Virus record (IMG/VR): IMGVR_UViG_3300045988_163663
Strand: one strand, 5' to 3'
Source of the DNA: a virus
DNA: 64,000 nucleotides
Part shown: piece by piece, positions 3,159 through 63,637 of the stretch
Layout of the letters: each line of letters opens with the position of its first letter
Position numbering within the stretch: position 1 is the stretch's first letter
Notes under the pieces: generated by a model
Told to the model about the DNA's origin: nothing
Seen by the model: the letters and a program-made list of their open reading frames with translations, nothing else
Database searches by the model: none
Made by a program: the position numbers and the translations under genes

Positions 3159-5975
3159 TTGGCAAAACAAACAATTACTTTAACTAATTTATTAACTAAT
3201 CCAAGTTTTGAAAAGACAGGTTGGACTGCTAATTCAGCTTGCTCAGTTAGTTACGCCGCCTCTCCTAAACATTCCGGCTCTTATAGCTTAAAAGTCACAT
3301 CTACATCAAGTTCTGAATCATTAATTGTAACCTCTGACACATATGCTATCAGAAAAAATCATATATATTATATAAGTGTTTATTTTTATGAAACTGTTAA
3401 TGTATGTTCTGAAATGCAATGTTATTGGCCAATAGCAGAACCATTAGTAGGTTTTGCTAAAGTAGATAAAACTAAATTAAATCAATGGCAGCGATTAAGT
3501 TGGCGTAATGTTCGTGCTAATTGGAATGACAACTAGAAAGCTCAATTCAGATTCGATTTTGAAGGTATGGCTTCAAATACAATGGCTTATATTGATGACG
3601 CTATGCTTATTGATTTAACAGCCGCATTTGGTGCTGGAAATGAACCTACACAAGAATGGTGTGATACTAATATTGAATATTTTGCTGGTAATAAAACAAT
3701 TCAATATGAAGCTCCTAATAAATATGATTTAACTGTTACAACTCCTACAAAAATATAGACTGGTGATATATTAAATTGTCCTTATAGTGGATCTATGAAA
3801 TCAGTAATTCTTCCAAAAGGGTAGTATAAATTAGAATGCTGGGGCGCCTAGGGCGGCAGCTATAATACTACTTACCCAGGTGGTAAAGGTGGATATAGTG
3901 CTGGCACATTAATACTTTCAAATAAAACAATATTTTATTTGTATGTTGGTGGCCAAGGAAACAACTATAACAGCGACTCCTCAAAAGGAACTACTACTGG
4001 AGGTTTTAATGGCGGCGGAGCAGTTACTTCATATGGTTATCGTAGCTCTGGTGGCGGTGGTACTGATATTCGCTTAAAAAATGACTCATTATATGCAAGG
4101 GTGATTGTTGCTGGAGGCGGAGGCGGTGCTTCACCAAATTATATAACCTGGCCGGGTGGTGTCGGAGGAGGCATAACTGGCTTTGGATACAATAATTCTA
4201 ATACTACTAATACATAGTACGGAGGAGTTGGTGGTACTTAGACTGCTGGTGGCGCAAAAGGTACAGCGACTAATTATGGAGCTAATGGTTCTTTTGGGCA
4301 AGGTGGAAACTATGATACTGCAAACAGTTCTTACACTTCTTATGGCTCAGGAGGTGGTGGCGGTTGGTATGGTGGAGGCAGTGCCGCAGGCATTGGTGGC
4401 GGCGGCTCCGGTTATATGTACACTTCTAGCTCCGCCTCTTATTATCCTTCTGGCTGTTTATTGAATTCATCTTATTATTTAACTAATGCTACTACATTAG
4501 CAGGTAATGCTGCATTTACTTCTCCAACAGGTACAAGTGAGACAGGACATGCCGGCAATGGTTATATACGCATAACAGTTATAGAAGCCAGTTCTGGAAA
4601 TACTTTAGTAAAAATCCCCTAGACTCTTCCTTCTACTTATAGCCCCATTGAATATTTACAATTCACAGGCACTCAATATATTGATACGGGAGCTATTGTT
4701 GATAGCAATACTGGTTTTGATATTACATTTGAAGTATTAAATGGTCAATCAGGTAGTCCATATTATAATTTATTCGGCGTGCGTGGCAATGATTCCTCTG
4801 GCGGCACAGGTGAGACGTAGAATTTCTTCTGCATTGATACAATAGCTGTTGATAGTAATAGTGGCACTGAATTTAAATATGGCTCTACTGTATATAATTC
4901 TGGTATTAAAGATACATCAAAAATTAATATTAAGTTATTAAATAAAGTATATACTAAACCTGATGGCTCTACTATTACTGTAACTGGTACTATTACTACT
5001 GGTTTATCAATGTACATTGGTTGTATTAATAAAGCAGGAACAGCATACGGTAATAAAGCCAGTATGAAATTATATAGATTTAAAATATATAATGATTCTA
5101 CTCTTACTCATGATTTTATCCCAGTATAGCGAGTTTCAGATAAAGTATTAGGCTTATATGATTTAAAAACATCAGTATTTAAAACAAATGCTGCTTCTGA
5201 TATTCCATTTACAAGTAATTTAATGAATGACTCTTCTAGCCTTGCTTACTTTAATGGCGATAGCTTATAGAGCCAAGGTAATGAATCTCTTACTGTAACT
5301 AATAATAATGTTACATTATCTAATGAACAAACTCATTTTGGTAAAAATTCATTAAAATTTGATGGCAGTTCTTCTTATATGTATATGCCATTCCCTTCTA
5401 CATATACAGGAGATATTACTCTTGAAGGATGGTTTTATTAGACTTCTAATAATAATACTACTTATCCTACGCCTTTTACTTTAATATCGACCAAAGGCCG
5501 CGGAATGTATATGCATAGAACAACAGCCAGTCAAACTTTTGTTGCAGCGACTGCTTCTAACAACTGGCCTGGTCTGTCTGGAGGTACAACTACACTTAAT
5601 ACCTGGATTCATATAGCAATGTGTTTATCTGGGACAACAACTTATTGTTTCATTGATGGAAAATTAAAAGGTACTCTAACAAACACTAATACCAGCTATG
5701 TGGGATTAACATTAGGTACATTAGCTGAAAGTGCGAGTAATAATCATGCATCAGGATATTATTATAAAGGATATATTGCCGAATTAAAAATAACTAAAGG
5801 ATGTAAATGGACTAAAGATTTTACATTGCCTGCTACTCTGTATAGTACCACTAAAGATTCTAAACCTTGGAAAGAACCAGTACAAATGTTTGTAAAAACT
5901 AATGCTAATATTTGGAAACCGATAAAAGGCATATGGGCAAAAACTGCGGCGAACACATGGAGTTAGGCATTATAA
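3159..5975 (+). CDS. large Gly-rich tail fibre or receptor-binding protein with a ConA/LamG-like lectin domain, about 13 in-frame TAG codons
   Basis: ORFs 3159-3536, 3567-3758, 3939-4217, 4416-4622 and 5505-5966 are all in frame 0 and joined only by TAG codons. TAA stop at 5973-5975. The C-terminal 'TWIHIAMCLSG..YKGYIAELKITKG' looks like a LamG jelly-roll. Start is TTG or nearby. Confidence 0.55.
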
Positions 5976-44980: not shown

Positions 44981-45574
44981 TTGATGAATTACTTCAACCA
45001 TTTGAAAACAGTCTTAACTCATAAAAAATGGGTTAATAGATATTGTAGAATGGCTGGGATTCCTTGGCGAGGGATTAAACATGACTTATCCAAATTCTCA
45101 AATATTGAATTTAAAGAGAGTTGTAAATATTGGACTGGTAATAGAAGCCCAATAGATAACTGCAAAGATGAAAATGGATACAGTAAAGCTTGGCAGCATC
45201 ATAAAGGCTGCAATACACATCATTGGGAATACTGGATTGATAATATTGGTGATGGACATCCCAATGCAATTCTTATGCCTTATAAAGATTGTGTAGAAAT
45301 GATTTGTGATTATCTTGGAGCCGCCAGAGCTTACATGGGTTCTGATTTTACCTATACAAAAGAATACGAATGGTGGCTAGGAAAACGTAAACATGTTCTT
45401 ATGCATCCTGTCGTTAAAGAATTTGTAGATGTAGTATTTATTTTTCTTAAAAAATATCATACTAATCCAAAAGCTATCTTAAATGAAGAATTTCTTAAAG
45501 GAACCTATAATCAGCTAATTCGTAAATATCGGATGGATAATCCTCATGATTGGCAGAAAGGACCTTCTTTATGA
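44981..45574 (+). CDS. hypothetical protein, His/Trp/Cys-rich
   Basis: 197-aa ORF. 'WQHHKGCNTHHWEYW'. No TAG. Confidence 0.45.
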   Translation: MMNYFNHLKTVLTHKKWVNRYCRMAGIPWRGIKHDLSKFSNIEFKESCKYWTGNRSPIDNCKDENGYSKAWQHHKGCNTHHWEYWIDNIGDGHPNAILMPYKDCVEMICDYLGAARAYMGSDFTYTKEYEWWLGKRKHVLMHPVVKEFVDVVFIFLKKYHTNPKAILNEEFLKGTYNQLIRKYRMDNPHDWQKGPSL

Positions 45575-46047
45575 TTATTTACACTGATGGAGCTTGTCAA
45601 GATAATGGCAAAGCTAATAGTAAAGGTGGATATGGTGTAGTAGTCTGTGATGATAATGGTAAATTAATTGACGCTTATGGCCATTGGGAGACTAATACTA
45701 CAAATAATATTCAAGAATTAAAAGCTGTTCTTTATGCTATGATACAATATGGTAATGATCCTAGATCTATTCCTATTGTATATACAGATAGTTCTTATGT
45801 GCATCAGACATTTACAAAATGGATGTATGGTTGGGCTAATAATGGATGGCGTAAAAGTGATAAAAAAATTCCTGAAAACCTTGATTTAATTCAAGCATAT
45901 TATAACTTAGTCAAAAAAGGATATAGAATTGATTTGCGTAAAGTAGCAGGTCATTCGGGCGTTAAAGGCAATGAATTGGCTGATATGATTGCTACTGGTA
46001 AAACTGATCCGATTAATTTAAAAAAAGGAGCAGATATGAATGAGTAA
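45571..46047 (+). CDS. rnh: ribonuclease H
   Basis: 'IIYTDGACQDNGKANSKGGYGVV..VYTDSSYV..WRKSDKK..NLDL' RNase HI fold. ATG 45571 with overlap. The upstream 45550 is an alternative start. Confidence 0.6.
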   Translation: MIIYTDGACQDNGKANSKGGYGVVVCDDNGKLIDAYGHWETNTTNNIQELKAVLYAMIQYGNDPRSIPIVYTDSSYVHQTFTKWMYGWANNGWRKSDKKIPENLDLIQAYYNLVKKGYRIDLRKVAGHSGVKGNELADMIATGKTDPINLKKGADMNE

Positions 46048-47747
46048 TAAAGTATATACAGAAGATAGTATTCAATCATTAACTCCATTGGAATTTACTC
46101 GTCTTAGACCAGGTGTATATTGTGGCTCAACTGAATATTCTACTCAATTACTTATTGAAATTGTATCAAATGCAATTGATGAATTTAAAGCAGGTCATGG
46201 CGATACTATTAAAGTTGATATTACTAAAGATAATGTAATTATTGTTGAAGATAATGGACAAGGTTTTATTCCAAATGCAATGCGAGAAGATGGTAAAACT
46301 ATTCTTGAAGCATCATTTGGAGTATTAAATACCTCTGGTAAATATGATGATGATGGTGTATACGAAGGAACTGCCCTGGGTCTTAATGGTATTGGTAGTA
46401 AATTAGCCACATATCTATCTCATTGGCTTGAAGTAATTACTTATCGAGATGGCAAATATGAACATGTCTGGTTTAAAGAAGGCGAATTTGTTAAACGCGA
46501 ATGTGGAGATTGGAATAACAAAAATAACCCTTCAGGTACCTTAGTACAATGGCAACCCAGTGAAGAATTTTTTACTCATACTGAAGTCAATTTAAATACT
46601 ATTAAACAGTTATTTAAAGTTCTTGTATGTTTATGTCCTGGTTTAAAAATTCTTCTTAATGGTGAAGAATACTATTCTGCTAATGGATTAACTGATTTAG
46701 TAAATGATGCAGTTAAAAATACTGAAATAATTAATAATAGATTAATTATTAAAAAGAATGAAGGAAAGAATAAATTAGATTTTGAATTAACCTATACTGG
46801 CAGTTATTCATCTATCATTGTTCCTTATGTAAATACCGGACTTACTGATAGTGGCCCGCATATTACCTTAATTAAAACTATTCTTACTCGTGAATTAAAT
46901 AAATTCTTCCGTGAGAAAAAATGGTTAAAAGAAAAAGAAGAAAATTTATCGGGAGATGATTGTCAAGAAGGCTTATATCTTGTATTCAATCTTACTACTC
47001 CTGGAGTAAGTTATGATGCTCAAACTAAGAGTAGAATTGTAAAATTAGATATGTCTCCATTTACCCCTTGGATCACTGAAAGTATTAGACAATGGCTTGA
47101 GCTTAATGAGAAATCAATTAAAATTATTGCTGATAAAGCTCTAAATGCACGTCGAGCAAGAGAAGCTGCCCGCAAAGCCAGAGAGACTGTCCGCAATCAG
47201 AATGAAAAGAAACAAAAAGCCTTAAAATTTGATAGTAAATTAGCTGATTGTTATAGTAAGAAACGTAGTCAATGTGAAATTTATATTACAGAGGGCGATA
47301 GTGCAAGTGGTAACTTAAAAGATGCTCGTAATAATGAATTTCAAGCAGTTTTGCCTGTCCGTGGTAAAATTTTAAATACTCAAAAAGCAAGTCTTGATAA
47401 AATCCAAAAGAATGCAGAAATTATGACTATGATTCAAGCATTTGGTTTAACTATTGATCCTAAGAATATGAAAATCACTTATCATCCAGAGGACTTACGA
47501 TATGGTAAAATTATCATTATGAGTGATGCTGATGTGGATGGTGCTCATATTAAAAATCTATTTTATACCTTCATTTGGAATTTCTGTCCAGAATTAATTA
47601 AAGATGGATATGTATATGCCGGTGTGCCACCACTTTATAAGATTACTATTGGTAAAAAATATAAATACCTTAAAAATGATGAAGCACTTGAAGCATTTCG
47701 TAAAGAAAATATAGGTAAAAAGTATATCGTTAATCGTATGAAAGGGT
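46040..47747 (+). CDS. type II topoisomerase large subunit (GyrB or T4 gp39-like), exon 1, ending at the 5' splice site
   Basis: GHKL ATPase 'IEIVSNAIDE..DNGQGF'. TOPRIM 'EIYITEGDSASG'. The ORF reaches 'NRMKG' then TAA. The first T of that TAA is the predicted last exon nucleotide. Confidence 0.6.
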
Positions 47748-48776
47748 AAGAAGAAAGTCTGGCCCTTACTCACTTTACCACTTATCAGTGGGGTCTATTA
47801 ATTGTAATAGGCTAACGAGGTAGTCTTCAAAAAACAATTGGACATTTCAGGAAATCTTGAAATGGATAAAATTTAAATATAAATGAAGATAATCTCGTGG
47901 GAAGAAACTATGATATTATCTTACTAATTAAGTGAGGTAATTATAATGATAGGTATATATAAAATTACAAATAAAATAAATAATTTTTCTTATATTGGAT
48001 AGAGTACTCAAATTGAAGAACGATTTAAAGAACATAAAAGCCAATATAATTGGAATAAAGAAACTAATAAACGATTATATCAGGCTATTCAAAAATTTGG
48101 GTTAGAAAATTTTACATTTGAAATATTAGAAGAATGTAAAATGAATCAATTAAATGAACGAGAATAGTATTATATTAAATATTATAATACTTATCCTGAC
48201 CAATACAACATGACTCCTGGAGGACAATTTAATGCTGAAGAATGTCATCCCAGTCATAAATTAACTAAACAAGATGTCATTAATATTCGTTCTCGATATA
48301 ATAATCACGAACGAAAAAATAAAGTTTATGAAGATTATAAAGATTTAATTGGAGAATCAGGTTTTCATAAAATATGGAATGGTGAAACGTGGAAAAATGT
48401 TATGCCAGAAGTATTTACTGAAGAAAATAAAAATTTTCATAAACACAACACATCAAATGAAGGTAGTGAAAATGGTCGTTCTCGCTTAAATGAAAATGAT
48501 GTATATCAAATAAGATTACGTCGTAAAAATGGTGAAAATATAAGAAAAGTTTATAAGGACTATTCTAATAAAATAACATATGGTTCATTTACGAATGTAT
48601 GGACTTATTAGAATTGGAAAAATATCATAGTTTAAACCTGTATCGACTATCCCTGTTGTTAGGGAGTAGAAATGCTATTGATACGCATTTCAAAAAGGTG
48701 AGCACAATGAAGGCAGTTAATACGTAAGCCTGAGTGAAGAAATAGTCAGTGCCAATAGTGATATTGGATAATCGCG
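47748..48776 (+). mobile_element. group I intron carrying a GIY-YIG ORF inside the topoisomerase gene
   Basis: The 5' exon ends in U at 47747. The intron ends in G at 48776. P7-like 'cgactatcc' and 'aaatagtcag' elements. Ligating the exons gives 'atg aaa ggg t|ta ggc gaa atg', which is MKGLGEM, the conserved GyrB 'YKGLGEM'. Confidence 0.55.
47946..48611 (+). CDS. GIY-YIG homing endonuclease, intron-encoded, recoded
   Basis: 'GIYKITNKINNFSYIG*STQIEERFKEH'. ORF 48210-48611 is in frame. Several TAG codons. Confidence 0.65.
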
Positions 48777-48967
48777 TAGGCGAAATGGATGTTGATGAAA
48801 CAGAAGAAACATTGACTGACCCTGAAAATCGTATTATTAAACAGATTACTGTAGAAGATATAGAAGCAACTGACAAATTATTTGAAGATTTAATGGGACA
48901 AGGCGTTAATGCTCGAAAAGCTTATATCAAAGAACATTCAAAGGAGGCAACCTATAATGCTGAATAA
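48777..48967 (+). CDS. topoisomerase II large subunit, exon 2 (GyrB C-terminus)
   Basis: '(L)GEMDVDETEETLTDPENRIIKQITVEDIEATDKLFEDLMGQGVNARKAYIKEH' matches E. coli GyrB '[54 protein letters not shown]'. Confidence 0.55.
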
Positions 48968-51290
48968 TGATGTATTACATGAATTAGGCACTAATTTTAT
49001 TGAGTATGCCGTTGCCGTTAATACAGATAGAGCTATTCCCAATGCTACTGATGGATTAAAACCAGTAGCAAAGAGAATCCTCTATGGTGCTTATGATTGT
49101 GGTTTTAAAAATGATAAACCTCATGTTAAATGTGCTAATATCGTTGGTAATGTAATGGCTGATTGGCATCCTCATGGTGATACTTCTATTTATGGTGCAT
49201 TAATTCGATTAAGTCAAAATTGGGTAATGCGTTATCCTTTAATTGATTTTCATGGGGCTAATGGTAATATTGGTGGTGACCCTCCTGCAGCACAACGTTA
49301 TACAGAAGCTCGTTTAGCTAAAATTACTGAAGAAGGAATGTTATCTTCTATTAAAAAAGATAGTGTAGATTTCGTTCCTAATTATTCAGAAACTAAACAA
49401 GAACCTGTCGAATTGCCTTCTATTTTTCCTAATTTGTTATGTAATCCAAATTCTGGCATCGGTGTTGCAATGGCTTGTTCTTGGGCACCACATAATTTAA
49501 AAGAAGTTGCTCAAGCCATTTATGATTATATTGATGGTAAAGAACCAATGCTTCCTGGTCCTGACTTCCCTACTGGTGGTGTAATTATTAATAAAAATGA
49601 TATACCCGCAATTATGAAATCAGGGCATGGTTCTGTAAAGGTTAGAGGTAAATATAAATTTGAAAATAATAATATTGTATTTACTGAAATGCCTTATGGA
49701 ATTACCACTGAAGATCTAATGACTCAAATTGGTGAGTTGTGTGATGCTGGTGATATCACTGGGATTGAAGATATTCGTAATGAAAGTAATAGAAAACAAG
49801 GCTTCCGTCTTGTTATTGAATGCGAAAAAAATGCTTCTATTAAAACAGTTTTAAGTAAATTATTTGCTAAAACGAATCTTCAAACAACATTTTCTTATAA
49901 TCAAGTAGCTCTTGTTAATAAGACTCCTACTGAATTAAATCTTAAAGATTGTATTAAATTATATATTGATTTTAATTCTAATTGTATTATTAGAGAATGT
50001 AAATTTGAAATTAATAAGGCTGAAAATAGATTACATATTATTGTAGGACTATTAAAAGCATTAGATATGATTGATAAAATTATTGCAATGATTAAGCAAT
50101 CTGAAAGTTCTAATGAAGCTAAACAGACTTTAATTTCTTGGGGATTTACTGATATTCAAGCACAAGCAATTCTTGACATGAAATTATCTAAATTATCTAA
50201 ATTGGATAAAATGGATTTGGAAAAAGAAAAAGCTGAACTTGAAGCATTAATTATTAAACTTAAAGCCATTTGTGAAAATCCTATTCCTGAATTACGTTCT
50301 CGCCTTAAAAATTTAGTTGATAAATATGGCGATGAACGTAGAACTGAATTAATTCAAATTGTAGAAGAAAAAGCTGAAAAAGAAATTATTAATGTAGAAC
50401 CTGAAAAATGTGTAGTCATAATGACTGAAGGCGGAACCATTAAACGTATTCCTATTACCAGTTTTAAAACCCAAAAGAAAAATGGTAAGGGAATAAAATC
50501 ACAAGAAGATATTACTTATTGTGTATTAAGAACTAATACTATTGATAATCTTATGTTATTTACTAATAAAGGACAGATGTATCGTCTATTGGTAAATGAT
50601 ATTCCAGTAGGAACAAATGTAAGTGCAGGAACTCCTATTTCAGCATTGATTACAATGGAACCTGGCGAAAAAGTTACTACAATGTATTCTATTTATAGAG
50701 ATACAAACGCCGAATTTGTTTTATTTGCCTCTAAGAATGGTTTAATTAAAAAAACTACTCTTGAAGAATATATTAAAACAAAAAAGAAAACTGGTATGTC
50801 TGCTGTTATTATTAGAGAAAATGATGCATTAGCTAATGTTTCTCTAATTAAAGATGAACAATTAATTATTCTCACAAAGAATGGTTATGCAATTAGATTT
50901 AACAGTAGTGAAATTGGATCTACTTCTCGAAATAGCAGTGGTGTAAAAGGTATTAACTTAGTAGATGATGAAATTGTCTGTGTCTTGCCATTAAGAGACA
51001 ATAATGATTATTTAGGACTATTTACTCAAAATGGATTTGCTAAAAAAGTTAAATTAAGTGAATTACCTATTCAAAAACGTAGTGGCCGCGGCATTAATCT
51101 ATATAAGGTAGATAAAATGACTGGTCCGATTGTTGGTGGTTCTTTGATTAATGATACAGATAATTTATTTATTGGTGGCGATAAGCACAATATTTGTATT
51201 TCTGCTAAAGATATTACATTGGGTTCTAAATATGCTGTTGGTTCATCAGTAATTAAAAATAGTAGAGTAAAATCAATTACAAAAATTTAA
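48957..51290 (+). CDS. type II topoisomerase subunit A (GyrA or T4 gp52-like)
   Basis: RBS 'aaggagg' then ATG 48957. 'AVAVNTDRAIPNATDGLKPVAKRILY' DNA breakage-reunion domain. 'HPHGD' motif. Confidence 0.65.
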   Translation: MLNNDVLHELGTNFIEYAVAVNTDRAIPNATDGLKPVAKRILYGAYDCGFKNDKPHVKCANIVGNVMADWHPHGDTSIYGALIRLSQNWVMRYPLIDFHGANGNIGGDPPAAQRYTEARLAKITEEGMLSSIKKDSVDFVPNYSETKQEPVELPSIFPNLLCNPNSGIGVAMACSWAPHNLKEVAQAIYDYIDGKEPMLPGPDFPTGGVIINKNDIPAIMKSGHGSVKVRGKYKFENNNIVFTEMPYGITTEDLMTQIGELCDAGDITGIEDIRNESNRKQGFRLVIECEKNASIKTVLSKLFAKTNLQTTFSYNQVALVNKTPTELNLKDCIKLYIDFNSNCIIRECKFEINKAENRLHIIVGLLKALDMIDKIIAMIKQSESSNEAKQTLISWGFTDIQAQAILDMKLSKLSKLDKMDLEKEKAELEALIIKLKAICENPIPELRSRLKNLVDKYGDERRTELIQIVEEKAEKEIINVEPEKCVVIMTEGGTIKRIPITSFKTQKKNGKGIKSQEDITYCVLRTNTIDNLMLFTNKGQMYRLLVNDIPVGTNVSAGTPISALITMEPGEKVTTMYSIYRDTNAEFVLFASKNGLIKKTTLEEYIKTKKKTGMSAVIIRENDALANVSLIKDEQLIILTKNGYAIRFNSSEIGSTSRNSSGVKGINLVDDEIVCVLPLRDNNDYLGLFTQNGFAKKVKLSELPIQKRSGRGINLYKVDKMTGPIVGGSLINDTDNLFIGGDKHNICISAKDITLGSKYAVGSSVIKNSRVKSITKI

Positions 51291-51308
51291 GAGAAGATTA
51301 TATTTAAA

Positions 51309-51608
51309 ATGAAAAGAATAAAAATTATTTATAAAGATTATGATTTTAGGCATTTTTGTGATGATTATGAATATAAATATTCAGAAAGTTATAAAAATGA
51401 TATTGAATTTTTAAATGTAAAGAATTATTTAGGTAGAGAAGAAATAGTATCTATTGAACCTTGGTCAATATGTTGGTATGATAATAATGAAAGACAAATC
51501 TTGTTTGAATCCCCTGACAAGCATGATGTTTTCATTAATTGTTCTAAATCTACTTTTGGAAAATATATTGCAGAATGTTTAGATAATTTAATGCAATTTA
51601 AAATTTGA
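51309..51608 (+). CDS. hypothetical protein
   Basis: 99-aa ORF with RBS. Confidence 0.35.
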   Translation: MKRIKIIYKDYDFRHFCDDYEYKYSESYKNDIEFLNVKNYLGREEIVSIEPWSICWYDNNERQILFESPDKHDVFINCSKSTFGKYIAECLDNLMQFKI

Positions 51609-51663
51609 TTTGCATTTCAAAAAATATTTTAATATAATATAAATAAAGAAAGGGACATAAATT

Positions 51664-52872
51664 ATGTCTTTCTCTCAAGAACTTATTGATAAATATGCTC
51701 CTGAAGCTGAGTGTATTCAAGCAATGAAAATTTGGAAACTTCCTGATGGAAAAGAAAATATGTTTCCAGAAATGTGTATTAATGGGAATTATTTTGCTGA
51801 ATTAAAAAAAGATGGATATTGGTATGAGTTTGAAAAAACTAATAATCATATGTATCTTTTCAGTAGGAATGTTAGTAAAAATACTGGCATTCTTACTGAA
51901 AAATTAGCAAATGTTCCTCATATTAAAGAAGCGTTACAAGTTATTCCTACGGGAACAATTTTAATTGGTGAAATTTATTATCCAGGTAAAACATCTAAAG
52001 ATGTAACACGAGTAATGGGTTGTTTAGCTGATGAAGCTATTAACCGCCAAAAAGATAATCCAGTTCATTTTTATTTACATGATGTAATTAAATATAATGG
52101 AATAGATTTACAATCTTATGGTGCATTAACTCGTTATAAAGTATTATGTAAAATTTGGGAAAAATTTAATTTAAGTCAATATCCATTTATGGAACTTGCA
52201 AAAGCAATTTATGAAGATATTTATGATTATACTGCTCAAGCTCTTAAAGATGGAGAAGAAGGCGTAGTTCTTAAATTAAAAACTGCTCAATATGCTCCTG
52301 ACAAAAGACCAGCTTGGTCGTCTATTAAAATTAAAAAAATTGATTATCTTGATGCAATTCTTATTGGTTTTGATGATGCGACTAAAGAATATGAAGGTAA
52401 AGAAATTCAGAGTTGGCAATATTGGGAAGTAAAAGAACCAAGTTTTTATGATTGTTTTGAAGAAGATCATTGTTTTGCTGGTTGGGTTAATCCTAAATTA
52501 GTAAGCGGTAATTATTATTATAAATATACTCAAAACCGCAGTAATACTAATTGGGGTCCTCAATTAGTAAATGATAATGAAAGATGTTATACACCAGTTA
52601 CTAAAGGATATTTTTATGGATGGAAAACTGCAATTCACATTGGAGCCTATGATGATGATGGCAACATTGTAGAAATTGGAACAGTCTCTTCAGGCCTAAC
52701 TGATGAATTACGTGCTGATTTTGCAAAACATCCTGAAAAGTATCTTAATAGAGTAGTTTCTTTACAATGTATGGAAAAATCTGTAAAAGATCATACATTA
52801 CGTCATGCCTTCTTTAAAGGATTCCGCAATGATAAAAATCCACAGGATTGTTTATTGAATACAATATTTTGA
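51664..52872 (+). CDS. ATP-dependent DNA ligase
   Basis: Motif I 'AELKKDGYW' (KxDG). OB-fold C-terminus. 402 aa. Promoter motif upstream. Confidence 0.6.
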   Translation: MSFSQELIDKYAPEAECIQAMKIWKLPDGKENMFPEMCINGNYFAELKKDGYWYEFEKTNNHMYLFSRNVSKNTGILTEKLANVPHIKEALQVIPTGTILIGEIYYPGKTSKDVTRVMGCLADEAINRQKDNPVHFYLHDVIKYNGIDLQSYGALTRYKVLCKIWEKFNLSQYPFMELAKAIYEDIYDYTAQALKDGEEGVVLKLKTAQYAPDKRPAWSSIKIKKIDYLDAILIGFDDATKEYEGKEIQSWQYWEVKEPSFYDCFEEDHCFAGWVNPKLVSGNYYYKYTQNRSNTNWGPQLVNDNERCYTPVTKGYFYGWKTAIHIGAYDDDGNIVEIGTVSSGLTDELRADFAKHPEKYLNRVVSLQCMEKSVKDHTLRHAFFKGFRNDKNPQDCLLNTIF

Positions 52873-61894: not shown

Positions 61895-63637
61895 ATGAAT
61901 TATAAATTAATTAATGATACACAAAAAACTCCATTAGAAACAATAATGAATAACCGTGGGATTAAGACTGAAGATATTTAGCATTTTCTTAATCCCACGC
62001 AATCCGATATATATCCTAATAAATTATTAAATAACATGGAATAGGGAATTAAACTATTATTAAAACATATTAAATAGAATAATAAAATTTTTATTTAGGT
62101 AGATGCTGATTGTGATGGTTATACATCATCAGCGTTATTAATTAATTATTTATATAATTTATTTCCTTATTATGTATCTAATAATGTTTATTATAGAGTC
62201 CATACGCAGAAAACTCATGGTATTATTTTAGATACTATTCCAGAAGATACTAAGTTAGTAATAATCCCAGATGCTGGAAGTAATTAGTATAATGAACATA
62301 AAGTGCTTTATGATAAAGGTATTGATATATTAATTTTAGACCATCACGAAGTAGATAAAATATCTCCTTATGCTTGTACGATTAATAATCAATTAGACAA
62401 TTACCCTAATAAAGCACTATCAGGTGTTGCAATAGTATATAAATTTTGTAATGCTATTGATGAAATTATTAATACTAATTATTCAAACAAGTATTTAGAT
62501 TTAGTGGCTCTTGGGTTAATCGGAGATATGGTAGATAGTAGACCTTATGAAACTCGTTATTTTATCAATCAAGGTTTAAAAAATCCTCAAAATCCCTATA
62601 TTAAAGGTATGATGGAAAAAAATAAATTCAAATTAAAAGAAACTTTAACTCCTATGGGTGTTGCTTTTTATATTGCTCCACTTATTAATGCAGTCACACG
62701 TGTTGGAGAAATTGATGAACGACAAGTTGTATTTTAGAGTATGTTAGATTTTCTTGCTTATGATTTAGTTCCATCAACCAAAAGAGGATGTAAAGGATAG
62801 GCAGAAACTATTGTAGAACAAGCATGCCGAGTAAGTGGTAATGTAAAAACGCGATAGACTAAGATCCGTGATACTAATGTTGAAATAATTGAGAAATTAA
62901 TCGAAGAACAAGGTTTATTAAATGATTAGATTTTAGTTGTTTAGTTGGAGAAAAAGTATGAGGTAAATAAAAATTTAACTGGATTAATTGCAAATGAATT
63001 TGCAAATAGATTTTAGAAGCCAACTCTTATACTTAATGAAGTAATTGAAAATGGAATAAAATACTGGGAAGGATCAGGTCGTGGCTATGAGTTTTTTGAG
63101 CCTATAAAAGATTTTAAGGCTTATCTTAACTCTACTGGATATTTTGAATTTGCAGAAGGTCATTAGGGAGCTTTTGGTGCGAAAATCGCAGATAGCAATA
63201 TAAGAAAATTTATAACAGATACAAATAGTAAATTGTATGGTTATGATGGTTAGCCAGTTTATTTAGCCGATTATATTTTTGATAGTAATAATATTGATAT
63301 AAATACTATATTAGAAATACCAGAATTTGAACCTTTATGGGGATAGAATTTTAAAGAGCCATATATAGTTATTAAAAATTTAAAACTTACAAATAATAAT
63401 GTAATTTATTATCCTAAAGAGACTACTGGAACATTAAAGATTAAATTACCAAATGATTTAGATTTAATTAAATTTAATGTCAATCAAGAAGAATATAATA
63501 ATTTACATAGTGATACAGGATGTATTATTATTGATATTATAGGTACTTGTAAAATAAATGAATTTTTAGGAAAAACTAATCCAGAAATTTTTATTACTGA
63601 TTATCATATTACTAAAAATGTAAAATATTATTTTTAA
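61895..63637 (+). CDS. RecJ-like DHH-family ssDNA exonuclease, about 12 TAG codons
   Basis: DHH motifs 'VDADCDGYTSSALL' and 'ILDHHE'. DHHA1-like C-terminus. ORF 62303-62737 is in frame. Confidence 0.55.

What the first reader, a model, noticed from the sequence alone, without database searches (positions are those of the whole stretch)
46040..48967. Topoisomerase II large-subunit gene split by a group I intron carrying a recoded GIY-YIG endonuclease
The GyrB-like ORF stops at 'NRMKG*'. The GyrB C-terminus 'GEMD..DPENR..LMGQGVNARKAYI' resumes at 48777 after a GIY-YIG ORF. A splice with the exon ending in U (47747) and the intron ending in G (48776) gives ...MKG-L-GEM..., exactly the conserved 'YKGLGEM'. 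P7-like 'gactatcc'/'atagtc' elements are present. This parallels the T4 gene 39/60 split but uses a self-splicing intron. The intronic endonuclease itself needs TAG suppression.
Basis: partly seen in the sequence, partly recalled or inferred. Interest (0 to 1): 0.75.

Follow-up and report, generated by a model that had tools for sequence, protein, structure and literature searches.

The report
Group I intron in phage topoisomerase gene
A phage gene for the B subunit of a gyrase-like topoisomerase is interrupted by a 1,029-base self-splicing-type (group I) intron whose own homing-endonuclease gene can only be read with the phage's altered genetic code (TAG = glutamine); this is a well-supported new example of a known kind of mobile element.

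Summary

- **Insertion:** window 47748-48776 is an exact 1,029-nt insertion relative to relatives 97-98% identical in protein, whose gene reads straight through ...RMKGLGEMD.
- **Rejoined protein:** joining 47747|48777 gives a 632-aa ParE/GyrB-like protein that aligns without a gap to solved ParE.
- **Group I features:**
  - P1 has a U•G pair at the 5' splice site, P10 pairs with exon 2, and the intron ends in G.
  - The conserved P4/P6 and P7 core elements are present, and P7.1/P7.2 resemble T4 td as I recall it.
  - P6a closes the loop that holds the ORF.
- **Family:** it belongs to an intron family found in at least 119 IMG/VR contigs. Among 61 distinct members the helices covary strongly (P3 is 91.5% paired against 53% with shuffled partners).
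- **Same-site copies:** 13 copies sit at this same codon. One is a 279-nt ORF-less copy that Rfam Intron_gpI matches at 37 bits (E 6e-8, below the 50-bit cut-off).
- **Endonuclease:** the GIY-YIG gene (47946-48635) has three in-frame TAGs. The window encodes a tRNA with a CUA anticodon, is TAG-recoded in many genes, and TAG-19 aligns with Gln in 70 of 101 homologues.
- **T4 comparison:** the T4 gene 39/60 split lies about 95 residues upstream, so that parallel is loose.

No RNA data were available, so splicing itself is inferred. Verdict: new member of a known kind.

The parts
46040..47747 (+). Exon 1 of the topoisomerase II B-subunit (ParE/GyrB-like) gene, codons 1-569 plus the first base (T) of the Leu570 codon. 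It contains no TAG codons.
   Evidence: Intron-less relatives are collinear up to 47747.
47748..48776 (+). Group I intron, 1,029 nt. It begins AAG, so T47747 plus AA forms a TAA stop for ribosomes on unspliced RNA. It ends in G48776 (the terminal omega-G).
   Evidence: Exact insertion relative to L003-L005. 13 same-site orthologues all end in G and all restore KG[L]G.
47742..47767 (+). P1. Exon AAGGGU (47742-47747) pairs with the internal guide GCCCUU (47762-47767), with the wobble pair U47747•G47762 at the 5' splice site. GUCUG (47757-47761), just 5' of the guide, pairs with exon 2 UAGGC (48777-48781), forming P10.
   Evidence: Read from the sequence. GTCTGGCCCTTA is conserved in most same-site orthologues, with small variants. 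P1 is recovered in the MFE fold of the ORF-less orthologue L169.
47769..47773 (+). P3 5' strand CUCAC. It pairs with GUGAG at 48698-48702, forming a pseudoknot with P7.
   Evidence: 61 family members: 91.5% paired against 52.7% with shuffled partners, and 31-50% when the strand is slid by 1-3 nt. About 39 distinct sequence pairs occur.
47778..47812 (+). Two hairpins between P3 and J3/4, here called P3.1/P3.2-like; there is no P2. They are CCACU/AGUGG (47778-82 / 47787-91) and GUCUAUUA/UAAUAGGC (47793-800 / 47805-12).
   Evidence: 97% paired against 68% and 63% shuffled. RNAalifold predicts both from six natural ORF-less introns. P3.1 is listed as an optional group I pairing in PMC3873408.
47813..47898 (+). 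J3/4 (UAA); P4 (ACGAG 47815-19 / CUCGU 47894-98, the classical P and Q elements); P5 (GUCUUCA 47823-29 / UGAAGAU 47884-90) with an extended tip.
   Evidence: The Rfam alignment of orthologue L169 places these on P4-P5.
47899..47917 (+). P6 5' strand (GGG 47899-901) and P6a 5' strand (AAACUAUGAUAUU 47905-17). Together with 48621-48639 they close the loop that holds the endonuclease ORF.
   Evidence: 13-bp perfect complement in the window. AM1 has an 18-bp helix of unrelated sequence at the same place.
47917..47939 (+). Hairpin UAUCUUACU/AGUGAGGUA that buries the endonuclease Shine-Dalgarno sequence (GAGG 47934-37).
   Evidence: Predicted at -8.0 kcal/mol. The equivalent hairpin, with covarying sequences (CUUAC/GUGAG against CUCC/GGAG), is present in 10 of 12 ORF-bearing orthologues.
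47946..48635 (+). GIY-YIG homing-endonuclease gene, 229 codons, with in-frame TAGs at 48000-02, 48165-67 and 48609-11, and a TAA stop at 48633-35. Its last codons overlap the P6a 3' strand.
   Evidence: Pfam PF01541 at 38.2 bits. TAG-19 aligns with Q in 70 of 101 homologues, and the tail after the third TAG (NWKNIIV) matches the AM1 endonuclease C-terminus NWKSIIV.
48621..48650 (+). P6a 3' strand (48621-33), P6 3' strand (CCU 48637-39), and the R element CCUGUAUCGACUAU with the P7 5' strand GACUAU (48645-50).
   Evidence: The 14-nt R element is found in at least 119 IMG/VR contigs. It aligns to the Rfam consensus AGACUA.
48651..48691 (+). P7.1 (CCCU 48651-54 / AGGG 48661-64), linker AGUA, and P7.2 (GAAAUGC 48669-75 / GCAUUUC 48685-91). 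This peripheral pair is typical of phage IA-type introns.
   Evidence: 99.6% and 96.5% paired against 76% and 65% shuffled. Compensatory changes are seen.
48698..48747 (+). P3 3' strand GUGAG (48698-702); P8 (CAC 48703-05 / GUG 48734-36 with inner AGGC 48711-14 / GCCU 48728-31); J8/7 AAGAA; P7 3' strand AUAGUC (48742-47, the S element).
   Evidence: P8 is only 64% paired against 44% shuffled in my fixed-register count.
48752..48776 (+). P9 hairpin CCAAUA-GUGA-UAUUGG (48752-67), then the tail AUAAUCGCG ending in the terminal G at 48776.
   Evidence: P9 is 93% paired against 64% shuffled. The Rfam alignment of L169 covers P9.
48777..48967 (+). Exon 2: the last two bases of the Leu570 codon, then GEMD...ATYNAE and the stop (residues 570-632).
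48957..51290 (+). Gene for the GyrA/ParC-like A subunit. The likely start is ATG 48957, behind the Shine-Dalgarno AAGGAGG, overlapping the exon 2 stop.
   Evidence: Pfam DNA_topoisoIV at 1.4e-132 plus GyrA C-terminal repeats. The start site is my inference.
21133..21204 (+). tRNA with anticodon CUA (amber suppressor), needed to read the endonuclease gene.
   Evidence: Rfam tRNA at 38.9 bits with anticodon loop CU-CUA-AA. ARAGORN missed it.

Best explanation
Window 47748-48776 is a mobile group I intron, inserted between the first and second base of the Leu570 codon in the conserved KG|LGEM motif of a phage ParE/GyrB-like topoisomerase gene.

**Intron type.** It is an IA-type intron whose core resembles T4 td as I recall it, with P7.1/P7.2. 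It has no P2. Two extra hairpins follow P3.

**How it works (inferred from the established group I mechanism).**
- The pre-mRNA folds so that P1 presents U47747•G47762.
- A free guanosine bound in P7 attacks after U47747.
- P10 then aligns exon 2, and the released 3'-OH of exon 1 attacks after the terminal G48776.
- This ligates ...AAA GGG U|UA GGC... and restores a 632-aa B subunit.
- The stop codon of that subunit overlaps the start of the A-subunit gene.
- On unspliced RNA, ribosomes stop at the TAA formed across the 5' splice site.

**The endonuclease.** The P6 loop carries a GIY-YIG homing-endonuclease gene that spreads the intron into intron-less alleles by cleavage and repair. Its translation faces two barriers. 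A hairpin buries its ribosome-binding site. Three in-frame TAG codons are read as Gln only when the phage's tRNA(CUA) is active. This probably delays endonuclease synthesis until late in infection, while the TAG-free topoisomerase exons are expressed early.

**What is shown.** The exact insertion, the restored reading frame, the conserved and covarying RNA structure, the endonuclease domain, the TAG recoding and the suppressor tRNA.

**What is inferred.** Catalysis, the timing of endonuclease synthesis and the endonuclease target.
For: 1. **Exact insertion.** Relatives L003-L005 (97-98% protein identity, about 95.5% nucleotide identity) read ...CGT ATG AAG GGT CTT GGT GAA ATG GAT... without interruption. 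The window matches them up to 47747 and again from 48779.
2. **Restored protein.** The joined 632-aa protein aligns end to end with ParE 4juo_C (E 3.5e-107), with RMKGLGEMD opposite RYKGLGEMN. Pfam GyrB_C spans the junction.
3. **Splice-site features.** U•G in P1, 5-bp P10 and a terminal G.
4. **Core elements.** The P/Q/R/S elements and helices P3-P9 are present. Across 61 distinct family members, defined by positional anchors, helices covary:
   - P3: 91.5% paired against 52.7% with shuffled partners
   - P3.1/P3.2: 97% against 68% and 63%
   - P7.1: 99.6% against 76%
   - P7.2: 96.5% against 65%
   - P9: 93% against 64%
5. **Independent structure prediction.** RNAalifold on six natural ORF-less members recovers P3.1, P3.2, P4, P5, P7, P7.1, P7.2 and P9. 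Of 43 pairs, 19 show compensatory changes.
6. **ORF-less orthologue.** L169, at the same codon, is 279 nt. Rfam Intron_gpI matches it at 37.1 bits, E 5.8e-8. Its MFE fold has z = -6.2 against shuffles.
7. **Mobility.**
   - 13 copies sit at the same codon in topoisomerase genes that share as little as 28-36% protein identity (Lactococcus phage AM1).
   - All conserve the junction ...GG(G/A) T|TA GG.
   - Close relatives L006/L007 lack this intron but carry a same-family intron at DADV|DG.
8. **No independent start for exon 2.** In 9 of 13 orthologues there is no in-frame start codon between the last in-frame stop in the intron and the 3' splice site.
9. **Recoding.**
   - A tRNA(CUA) is present.
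   - Many long + strand ORFs need 1-15 TAG read-throughs, while most replication genes, including the topoisomerase genes, have none.
   - TAG-19 of the endonuclease aligns with Gln in 70 of 101 homologues.
10. **Shine-Dalgarno hairpin.** It is conserved in 10 of 12 orthologues.
Against: - There are no RNA data, so splicing has not been observed.
- Rfam Intron_gpI gives no hit in the window even at E <= 10. The ORF-less orthologue scores 37.1 bits, below the 50-bit gathering score.
- The helix order is atypical: the P3 5' strand directly follows P1 and is followed by two hairpins. The Rfam model could not place P3.
- P8 shows weaker support (64% paired).
- In the window itself an in-frame GTG (48749) precedes exon 2, so separate translation is not formally excluded.
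- The proposed timing role of the TAG codons rests on analogy (preprint 10.1101/2021.08.26.457843), not on data for this phage.
Confidence: 0.9

Rival explanations
1. The gene is permanently split, as T4 gene 39 and gene 60 are. A free-standing endonuclease cassette separates two ORFs, and a 569-aa protein and a 72-aa protein (starting at GTG 48749) are translated separately and assemble without RNA splicing.
For: - A 72-aa ORF with an in-frame GTG start exists at 48749-48967.
- RefSeq annotates the equivalent Lactococcus phage AM1 locus as three separate CDS.
- T4 shows that a split B subunit can work.
Against: - GTG 48749 lies in the J7/9-P9 segment of a covarying RNA structure. It has no Shine-Dalgarno sequence, whereas the B-subunit, endonuclease and A-subunit starts all have AGGAG/GAGG.
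- 9 of 13 same-site orthologues have no start codon upstream of the junction. Many have a stop 7 nt before it.
- The split products would lack Leu570 of the invariant KGLGE motif.
- No extension tails like those described for the T4 MobA split are seen.
- The non-coding flanks are conserved as base pairs, not as codons.
Confidence: 0.04
2. It is a group I intron that no longer self-splices efficiently, either decayed or dependent on a protein cofactor. The topoisomerase gene would then be partly or wholly inactivated in this phage.
For: - There is no functional test.
- The Rfam score of the orthologue is sub-threshold.
- The helix order is unusual and P8 support is weak.
Against: - Every core helix is intact in the window copy (last line).
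- The exons carry no stops or frameshifts and keep all the Pfam domains.
- The endonuclease ORF is intact under the phage's code.
- The same intron is kept at this codon in 13 divergent phages.
Confidence: 0.05
3. The endonuclease gene is a pseudogene. On this reading the three TAGs are genuine stops, and the intron is immobile.
For: Under the standard code the ORF stops at codon 19. Degenerate intron endonucleases are common; for example, T4 mobA is annotated as defective.
Against: - The frame stays open across all three TAGs with no other stop or frameshift.
- The sequence after the third TAG still matches the homologue's C-terminus.
- TAG-19 falls on the conserved Gln of the YIGQ motif (70 of 101 homologues).
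- The window has a tRNA(CUA) and dozens of other genes with in-frame TAGs.
- About 10 related endonucleases also have TAG at position 19.
Confidence: 0.04

Closest known systems
Phage T4 td intron with I-TevI (group IA2 intron, GIY-YIG endonuclease in the P6 loop)
   Same: - Both are group I introns in an essential DNA-metabolism gene of a large lytic phage.
- Both carry a GIY-YIG endonuclease gene in a P6 extension.
- Both have the P7.1/P7.2 peripheral pair and near-identical P7 strands (GACUAU/AUAGUC).
- Both have a stop codon soon after the 5' splice site.
- In both, the endonuclease ribosome-binding site is buried in a hairpin.
- The td sequence and its regulation are recalled from my own knowledge.
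   Different: - The host gene is a topoisomerase B subunit, not thymidylate synthase.
- P2 is absent, and two hairpins (P3.1/P3.2-like) follow the P3 5' strand.
- The endonuclease gene additionally needs TAG read as Gln.
- There is no experimental splicing evidence here.
Lactococcus phage AM1 and relatives (Audreyjarvisvirus, 949 group): 'DNA topoisomerase II' / 'homing endonuclease' / 'DNA topoisomerase' CDS triplet
   Same: It is an orthologous intron at the identical codon (SKG|LGELD), with the same P1/P10 junction AAAGGGT|TAGG. It has the same helices with compensatory changes and a homologous GIY-YIG endonuclease ending NWKSIIV.
   Different: - AM1 uses the standard code, with no TAG in the endonuclease gene.
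- Its topoisomerase shares only 28-36% protein identity.
- The public record annotates three CDS and no intron.
- I could not find a paper describing it.
T4 gene 39 / mobA / gene 60 split of the topoisomerase large subunit, with the 50-nt translational bypass
   Same: In both, the same enzyme subunit is interrupted by a homing-endonuclease-bearing mobile element.
   Different: - T4 uses no intron. It makes two polypeptides and uses ribosome hopping.
- The T4 split maps to about residues 470-476 of this protein, and the bypass gap to DADHDG|LG (about residue 501).
- The window's intron is at residue 569/570, inside the region homologous to gp60.
Recoded group I intron endonuclease in TGA-recoded 'Agate' gut phages (preprint 10.1101/2021.08.26.457843)
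   Same: In both, an intron-encoded endonuclease sits in an early gene and carries in-frame reassigned stop codons. The authors propose that this blocks endonuclease synthesis until late infection.
   Different: There the codon is TGA read as Trp; here it is TAG read as Gln with a tRNA(CUA). The host gene and phage lineage differ. No structural analysis of that intron was available for comparison.

Membership tests
Group I self-splicing intron | Precise interruption of a gene, with exons that rejoin in frame to a conserved product | tested here: met
   Intron-less relatives are collinear on both sides. The joined ORF is 632 aa and aligns to ParE without a gap at the junction.
Group I self-splicing intron | P1 helix between the 5' exon end and an internal guide sequence, with a U•G pair at the splice site, and P10 with the 3' exon | tested here: met
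   AAGGGU (47742-47) pairs with GCCCUU (47762-67), with U47747•G47762. GUCUG (47757-61) pairs with UAGGC (48777-81). This is conserved in the same-site copies, and the MFE fold of L169 recovers P1.
Group I self-splicing intron | Terminal guanosine (omega-G) at the 3' end of the intron | tested here: met
   G48776. All 13 orthologues end in G immediately before TAGG.
Group I self-splicing intron | Conserved core P3-P9 with the P3/P7 pseudoknot, supported by covariation | tested here: met
   61 family members show 86-100% pairing against 53-76% for shuffled partners in P3, P5, P7.1, P7.2 and P9. P4 and P7 are invariant. RNAalifold finds 19 of 43 pairs compensatory.
Group I self-splicing intron | Match to Rfam RF00028 (Intron_gpI) at the gathering score (50 bits) | tested here: not met
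   - There is no hit in the window.
- The ORF-less same-site orthologue L169 scores 37.1 bits, E 5.8e-8.
- The roughly 700-nt ORF in P6 and the non-standard position of P3 explain the loss of score.
- Other introns in the same contigs do pass, at 52-59 bits.
Group I self-splicing intron | Guanosine-dependent self-splicing, or a ligated-exon RNA in vivo | not testable with these tools
   No RNA data. A search for the ligated junction in metagenome contigs found only distant uninterrupted genes, 77% identity or less.
GIY-YIG homing endonuclease | GIY-YIG catalytic domain with the GIY and YIG motifs | tested here: met
   PF01541 at 38.2 bits against a cut-off of 22.6, with TAG translated as Q. 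The sequence reads MIGIYKITNKINNFSYIG(Q)S...R..H.
GIY-YIG homing endonuclease | Site-specific cleavage of the intron-less allele, and homing | not testable with these tools
   Only indirect signs are available.
- Presence of the intron is patchy among relatives 95-98% identical in protein.
- Five silent differences cluster in the 12 nt around the junction relative to the intron-less alleles.
- Those junction nucleotides are shared with the distant AM1 copy.
TAG-to-Gln recoded phage (genetic code 15) | In-frame TAG codons in conserved genes, aligning with Gln in homologues | tested here: met
   More than 30 long ORFs have 1-15 in-frame TAGs. Endonuclease position 19 aligns with Q in 70 of 101 homologues. 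The other two positions are variable (K/R/Q).
TAG-to-Gln recoded phage (genetic code 15) | Phage-encoded suppressor tRNA with anticodon CUA | tested here: met
   21133-21204, Rfam tRNA at 38.9 bits, anticodon loop CU-CUA-AA. Its Gln identity is inferred only from the U1 mismatch and G73, not tested.
T4-type split topoisomerase (gp39 + gp60) | Two separately translated polypeptides with their own start signals, split upstream of the Toprim DxD motif | tested here: not met
   - The split site differs: residue 569/570 here, against about 470-476 in T4.
- There is no Shine-Dalgarno sequence before 48749.
- Most orthologues lack any start codon for exon 2.

The most novel reading that the evidence does not exclude
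The phage's switch in genetic code acts as a timer for a selfish element nested in an early essential gene.

- **Early in infection:** the three TAGs and the hairpin over the Shine-Dalgarno sequence keep ribosomes out of the P6 loop and off the P6a 3' strand, which the last endonuclease codons overlap. The ribozyme therefore folds and the topoisomerase is made.
- **Late in infection:** tRNA(CUA) lets the endonuclease be made and homing occur. Ribosome read-through into P6a may then also reduce splicing.
- **A related observation:** the same intron family occupies several sites in this gene, one of them next to the Gly codon where T4 gene 60 carries its 50-nt bypass gap. This hints that very different mobile elements converge on the same catalytic-motif DNA.
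Probability: 0.35. Interest if true: 0.6.

Novelty: new member of a known kind. Interest (0 to 1): 0.4.

Why it matters
- **Annotation.** Without recognising the intron and the TAG=Gln code, this locus is called as a truncated topoisomerase, several endonuclease fragments and an orphan 72-aa ORF. The same mis-annotation stands in RefSeq records of Lactococcus 949-group phages.
- **A testable case.** It offers a concrete way to test the idea that stop-codon recoding delays expression of a homing endonuclease nested in an early gene.
- **A resource.** It defines a large phage intron family (at least 119 viral contigs; no P2; two hairpins after P3) that the general Rfam model under-detects. This is useful for building a better covariance model.
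- **Limits.** It changes no general principle. Group I introns with GIY-YIG endonucleases in phage DNA-metabolism genes have been known since T4 td.

Tried and rejected
- **Rfam on the window.** Scans at the gathering score and at E <= 10 over 47650-48850 gave no Intron_gpI hit, only chance snoRNA/miRNA matches.
- **Rfam on ORF-less family members.** Nine were scanned at the gathering score. The hits were to other, canonical introns in those contigs, not to this family.
- **blastn against isolate phages.**
  - The whole locus matched only AM-type Lactococcus phages and a few others.
  - The 3' core alone matched only Enterococcus phages (VRE9_3, EF1, EF5), with no annotated intron features.
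- **Literature.** Searches for a described intron in 949-group phages, or in any phage topoisomerase or gyrase gene, found nothing. The 2014 review of bacterial group I introns and a 2025 intron database paper mention neither topoisomerase nor gyrase.
- **Search for the ligated junction.** With the intron-type codons it gave 0 hits in IMG/VR. In metagenome contigs it gave at least 120 hits, but these are distant uninterrupted genes, presumably mostly cellular gyrB/parE. The best is 77% identical, so this is no evidence for or against splicing.
- **Alignment for P3 counting.** A MAFFT alignment of natural introns was out of register around P3, so I counted P3 pairs with positional anchors in a script instead of with the count of structure pairs.
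- **Intein or translational bypass.** I considered both and rejected them. The insert has stops in the host frame from its first codon, no Hint domain was found, and it has a full ribozyme core.
- **A new helix topology.** I first took the order P3 then two hairpins as new. P3.1 is, however, a recognised optional pairing, so I do not claim it as new.

Full report
**1. What is in the sequence**

On the + strand, an ORF at 46040-47749 encodes the ATPase, transducer and Toprim parts of a type IIA topoisomerase B subunit. It ends ...NRMKG followed by TAA. A 72-aa ORF at 48749-48967 holds the GyrB C-terminal motif. Between them lies an ORF with the GIY-YIG signature, broken by TAG codons.

Joining base 47747 to base 48777 is in frame. 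It gives a 632-aa protein reading ...RMKG-L-GEMD.... Pfam DNA_gyraseB_C covers residues 560-621, so it spans the junction at 569/570. The joined protein aligns end to end with Streptococcus pneumoniae ParE (4juo_C, E 3.5e-107). RMKGLGEMDVDE lies opposite RYKGLGEMNADQ, with no gap. The next gene (48909/48957-51290) is a GyrA/ParC-like A subunit. The enzyme is therefore of the bacterial two-subunit type.

**2. The insertion is exact and recent**

A search of IMG/VR with the joined protein returned 80 related loci. In 77 of them the gene is uninterrupted.

Three of these (L003-L005) are 97-98% identical in protein and about 95.5% identical in DNA. They read ...CGT ATG AAG GGT CTT GGT GAA ATG GAT... 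The window aligns to L003 up to 47747 and again from 48779. So 47748-48776 is a clean 1,029-nt insertion.

Five silent differences cluster in the 12 nt around the junction: AAA GGG T|TA GGC here, AAG GGT CTT GGT in the intron-less alleles. The window's version is shared with a distant copy of the same insertion in Lactococcus phage AM1. This is what co-conversion of flanking exon sequence during homing, or the pairing needs of P1/P10, would produce.

Two further close relatives (L006, L007; 95-96% identical) lack this insertion. They carry another of about 1 kb inside DADV|DG of the same gene.

**3. The insertion has the anatomy of a group I intron**

Read from the sequence:
- **P1:** exon AAGGGU (47742-47) pairs with GCCCUU (47762-67), placing U47747•G47762 at the 5' splice site.
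- **P10:** the adjacent GUCUG (47757-61) pairs with the first bases of exon 2, UAGGC.
- **3' end:** the intron ends in G48776.
- **P4:** ACGAG/CUCGU, flanked by UAA and AAU. These are the classical P and Q elements.
- **P5:** GUCUUCA/UGAAGAU.
- **P6/P6a:** GGG/CCU plus a perfect 13-bp helix (47905-17 / 48621-33) that closes the ORF-bearing loop.
- **P7:** GACUAU (48645-50) / AUAGUC (48742-47). They match the Rfam consensus ...AGACUA... / ...AUAGUC.
- **P7.1 and P7.2:** joined by AGUA, a layout that I recall from the T4 td and Twort introns (my own knowledge).
- **P3:** CUCAC (47769-73) / GUGAG (48698-702).
- **P8** and **P9**, the latter with a GUGA loop.

**4. The structure is supported by comparison**

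The 14-nt R element occurs in at least 119 IMG/VR contigs. I parsed 61 distinct family members using positional anchors only, not complementarity.

| Helix | Paired | Paired with shuffled partners |
|---|---|---|
| P3 | 91.5% | 52.7% |
| Hairpin 1 after P3 | 97% | 68% |
| Hairpin 2 after P3 | 97% | 63% |
| P7.1 | 99.6% | 76% |
| P7.2 | 96.5% | 65% |
| P9 | 93% | 64% |
| P8 | 64% | 44% |

- Most positions in these helices (except the conserved closing pairs of the two hairpins) show 3-6 pair types.
- Sliding the P3 3' strand by 1-3 nt drops pairing to 31-50%.
- P4 and P7 are invariant. This is partly because of how the set was selected.
- RNAalifold on six natural ORF-less members independently predicts both hairpins, P4, P5, P7, P7.1, P7.2 and P9. 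Of 43 pairs, 19 are kept through changes on both sides.

Thirteen copies sit at exactly this codon of topoisomerase genes, some sharing as little as 28-36% protein identity. All restore KG[L]G and all end in G. One of them, L169, is a 279-nt ORF-less intron. Its MFE fold recovers P1, P3, both hairpins, P4-P6, P7.1 and P9, with z = -6.2. Rfam Intron_gpI is its only significant match (37.1 bits, E 5.8e-8), below the 50-bit gathering score.

The window's own copy gives no Rfam hit. That is expected with about 700 nt of ORF in P6 and with P3 in an unusual place. In this family the P3 5' strand follows P1 directly, P2 is absent, and two hairpins separate P3 from J3/4. P3.1 is a recognised optional pairing (PMC3873408), so I treat this as a subfamily trait and not as a new topology.

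**5. The endonuclease and the genetic code**

The ORF 47946-48635 matches Pfam GIY-YIG (38.2 bits against a cut-off of 22.6) when TAG is translated. It has TAGs at codons 19, 74 and 222.

- Codon 19 falls in YIG-Q-S. The aligned residue is Gln in 70 of 101 homologous hits, and is itself TAG in about 10.
- After the third TAG the frame continues as NWKNIIV-TAA. This matches the C-terminus NWKSIIV of the AM1 endonuclease.
- The window contains a tRNA with anticodon CUA at 21133-21204 (Rfam 38.9 bits). ARAGORN missed it.
- With TAG read through, long + strand ORFs tile the window. Many carry 1-15 TAGs. Most of the replication genes at 27-33 kb and all genes at 45-53 kb, including both topoisomerase genes, carry none.

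So the phage uses TAG as a sense codon, most likely Gln. The endonuclease gene is recoded although its host gene is not.

Its Shine-Dalgarno sequence (GAGG 47934-37) is buried in a hairpin (47917-25 / 47931-39). That hairpin is conserved, with covariation, in 10 of 12 ORF-bearing orthologues.

**6. The split-gene rival**

Four points argue against it.

- GTG 48749 lies within the structured J7/9-P9 segment. It has no Shine-Dalgarno sequence, unlike the three neighbouring genes.
- In 9 of 13 orthologues there is no in-frame start between the last in-frame stop in the intron and the splice site. A stop often lies 7 nt upstream.
- The split products would lack Leu570 of the invariant motif.
- The flanks are conserved as base pairs, not as codons.

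I give this rival about 4%. A decayed or cofactor-dependent intron, and a pseudogenised endonuclease, cannot be excluded without experiments. Both are disfavoured by the intact helices and the intact recoded frame.

**7. Comparison with what is known**

- **Closest paradigm.** This is the T4 td intron with I-TevI: a GIY-YIG gene in P6, P7.1/P7.2, and a sequestered ribosome-binding site (my own knowledge for td).
- **T4 gene 39/60.**
  - gp60 aligns to residues 476-622 of this protein, so the T4 split maps to about 470-476.
  - The bypass gap maps to DADHDG|LG.
  - The window's intron lies inside the gp60-homologous part, at IKG|LGS.
  - T4 uses separate polypeptides and ribosome hopping, not splicing.
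- **Recoded intron endonucleases.** The idea that one in an early gene is held back until late infection has been published for TGA-recoded Agate phages (preprint 10.1101/2021.08.26.457843).
- **Introns in gut phages generally.** Group I introns that split essential genes of gut phages are well documented (PMC12880540).
- **This host gene.** I found no description of a group I intron in a phage topoisomerase or gyrase gene. RefSeq annotates the AM1 orthologue as three CDS. The library does not cover subscription journals, however.

**8. Verdict**

It is a new member of a known kind. Its value lies in annotation, in a concrete test case for recoding-based timing of a homing endonuclease, and in defining a large intron family that the general model under-detects. 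Splicing, the endonuclease target and the timing are inferences. The decisive tests are RT-PCR or split reads across 47747|48777, and a GTP-dependent self-splicing assay.

Noticed in passing
window 21133-21204 (+): A tRNA with anticodon CUA (amber suppressor). Rfam tRNA scores it at 38.9 bits, but ARAGORN misses it, probably because of an odd T-arm. It has a U1 mismatch and G73, which would fit glutamine identity.
   Followed up: partly
window 1-64000, e.g. 3414-5975 (12 TAG), 22614-26162 (15 TAG), 61895-63637 (14 TAG); TAG-free genes at 27159-33247 and 44984-52872: The window is TAG-recoded in blocks. Many long + strand ORFs exist only if TAG is read through. Most replication-type genes, including both topoisomerase genes, contain no TAG at all.
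   Followed up: partly
window 21308-22131 (+): ARAGORN with introns allowed finds a tRNA-like gene. Its acceptor and T arm are intact, and CCA is encoded. It is split by an insert of about 736 nt that carries an HNH endonuclease ORF, possibly a second intron in a tRNA gene. The anticodon call (tta) is unreliable. Rfam gave no intron hit there.
   Followed up: partly
window 22145-22257 (+): A RAGATH-33 RNA (135 bits, above the gathering score) lies immediately downstream of the interrupted tRNA-like gene.
   Followed up: no
window 18494-18634 (+): tRNA-Glu(UUC) with a 66-nt insert in the anticodon loop. The Rfam tRNA hit spans 138 nt, and ARAGORN finds the gene only when introns are allowed.
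   Followed up: no
window 18804-19396 (+): A full-length ROOL RNA (324 bits) lies within the tRNA/ncRNA cluster.
   Followed up: no
L006 5500-6560 and L007 (IMG/VR relatives); window equivalent 47525-47548: Relatives 95-96% identical in protein lack the KG|LG intron. They carry a same-family intron, with a related GIY-YIG gene, inside DADV|DG (GT|C). Other family members sit at DA|DVDG and DADVDG|AH. T4 gene 60's 50-nt bypass gap lies at the matching DADHDG|LG position.
   Followed up: partly
L001 (Lactococcus phage AM1, NC_049854) 3573-4553; also AM2-AM12: RefSeq and GenBank annotate 'DNA topoisomerase II', 'homing endonuclease' and a 72-aa 'DNA topoisomerase' as separate CDS. The locus is an orthologous, unannotated group I intron of 981 nt.
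   Followed up: yes
L002 (Enterococcus phage VRE9_3) about 1626-2637 and 3281-3525: One gene of this phage holds a member of the same intron family, with a GIY-YIG ORF. Further downstream there is a separate canonical group I intron (Rfam 31.5 bits, sub-threshold) overlapping an HNH ORF. None is annotated as an intron.
   Followed up: partly
window 48957-48967: The A-subunit gene probably starts at ATG 48957, behind AAGGAGG, not at 48909. It therefore overlaps the exon 2 stop codon (ATGCTGAATAA), which suggests translational coupling that depends on the spliced message.
   Followed up: no
L011 3014-3169: A 52-aa fragment, 98% identical to the N-terminus of the window's B subunit, lies about 0.8 kb upstream of a full-length gene that is only 75% identical. 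This looks like a recombination scar.
   Followed up: no
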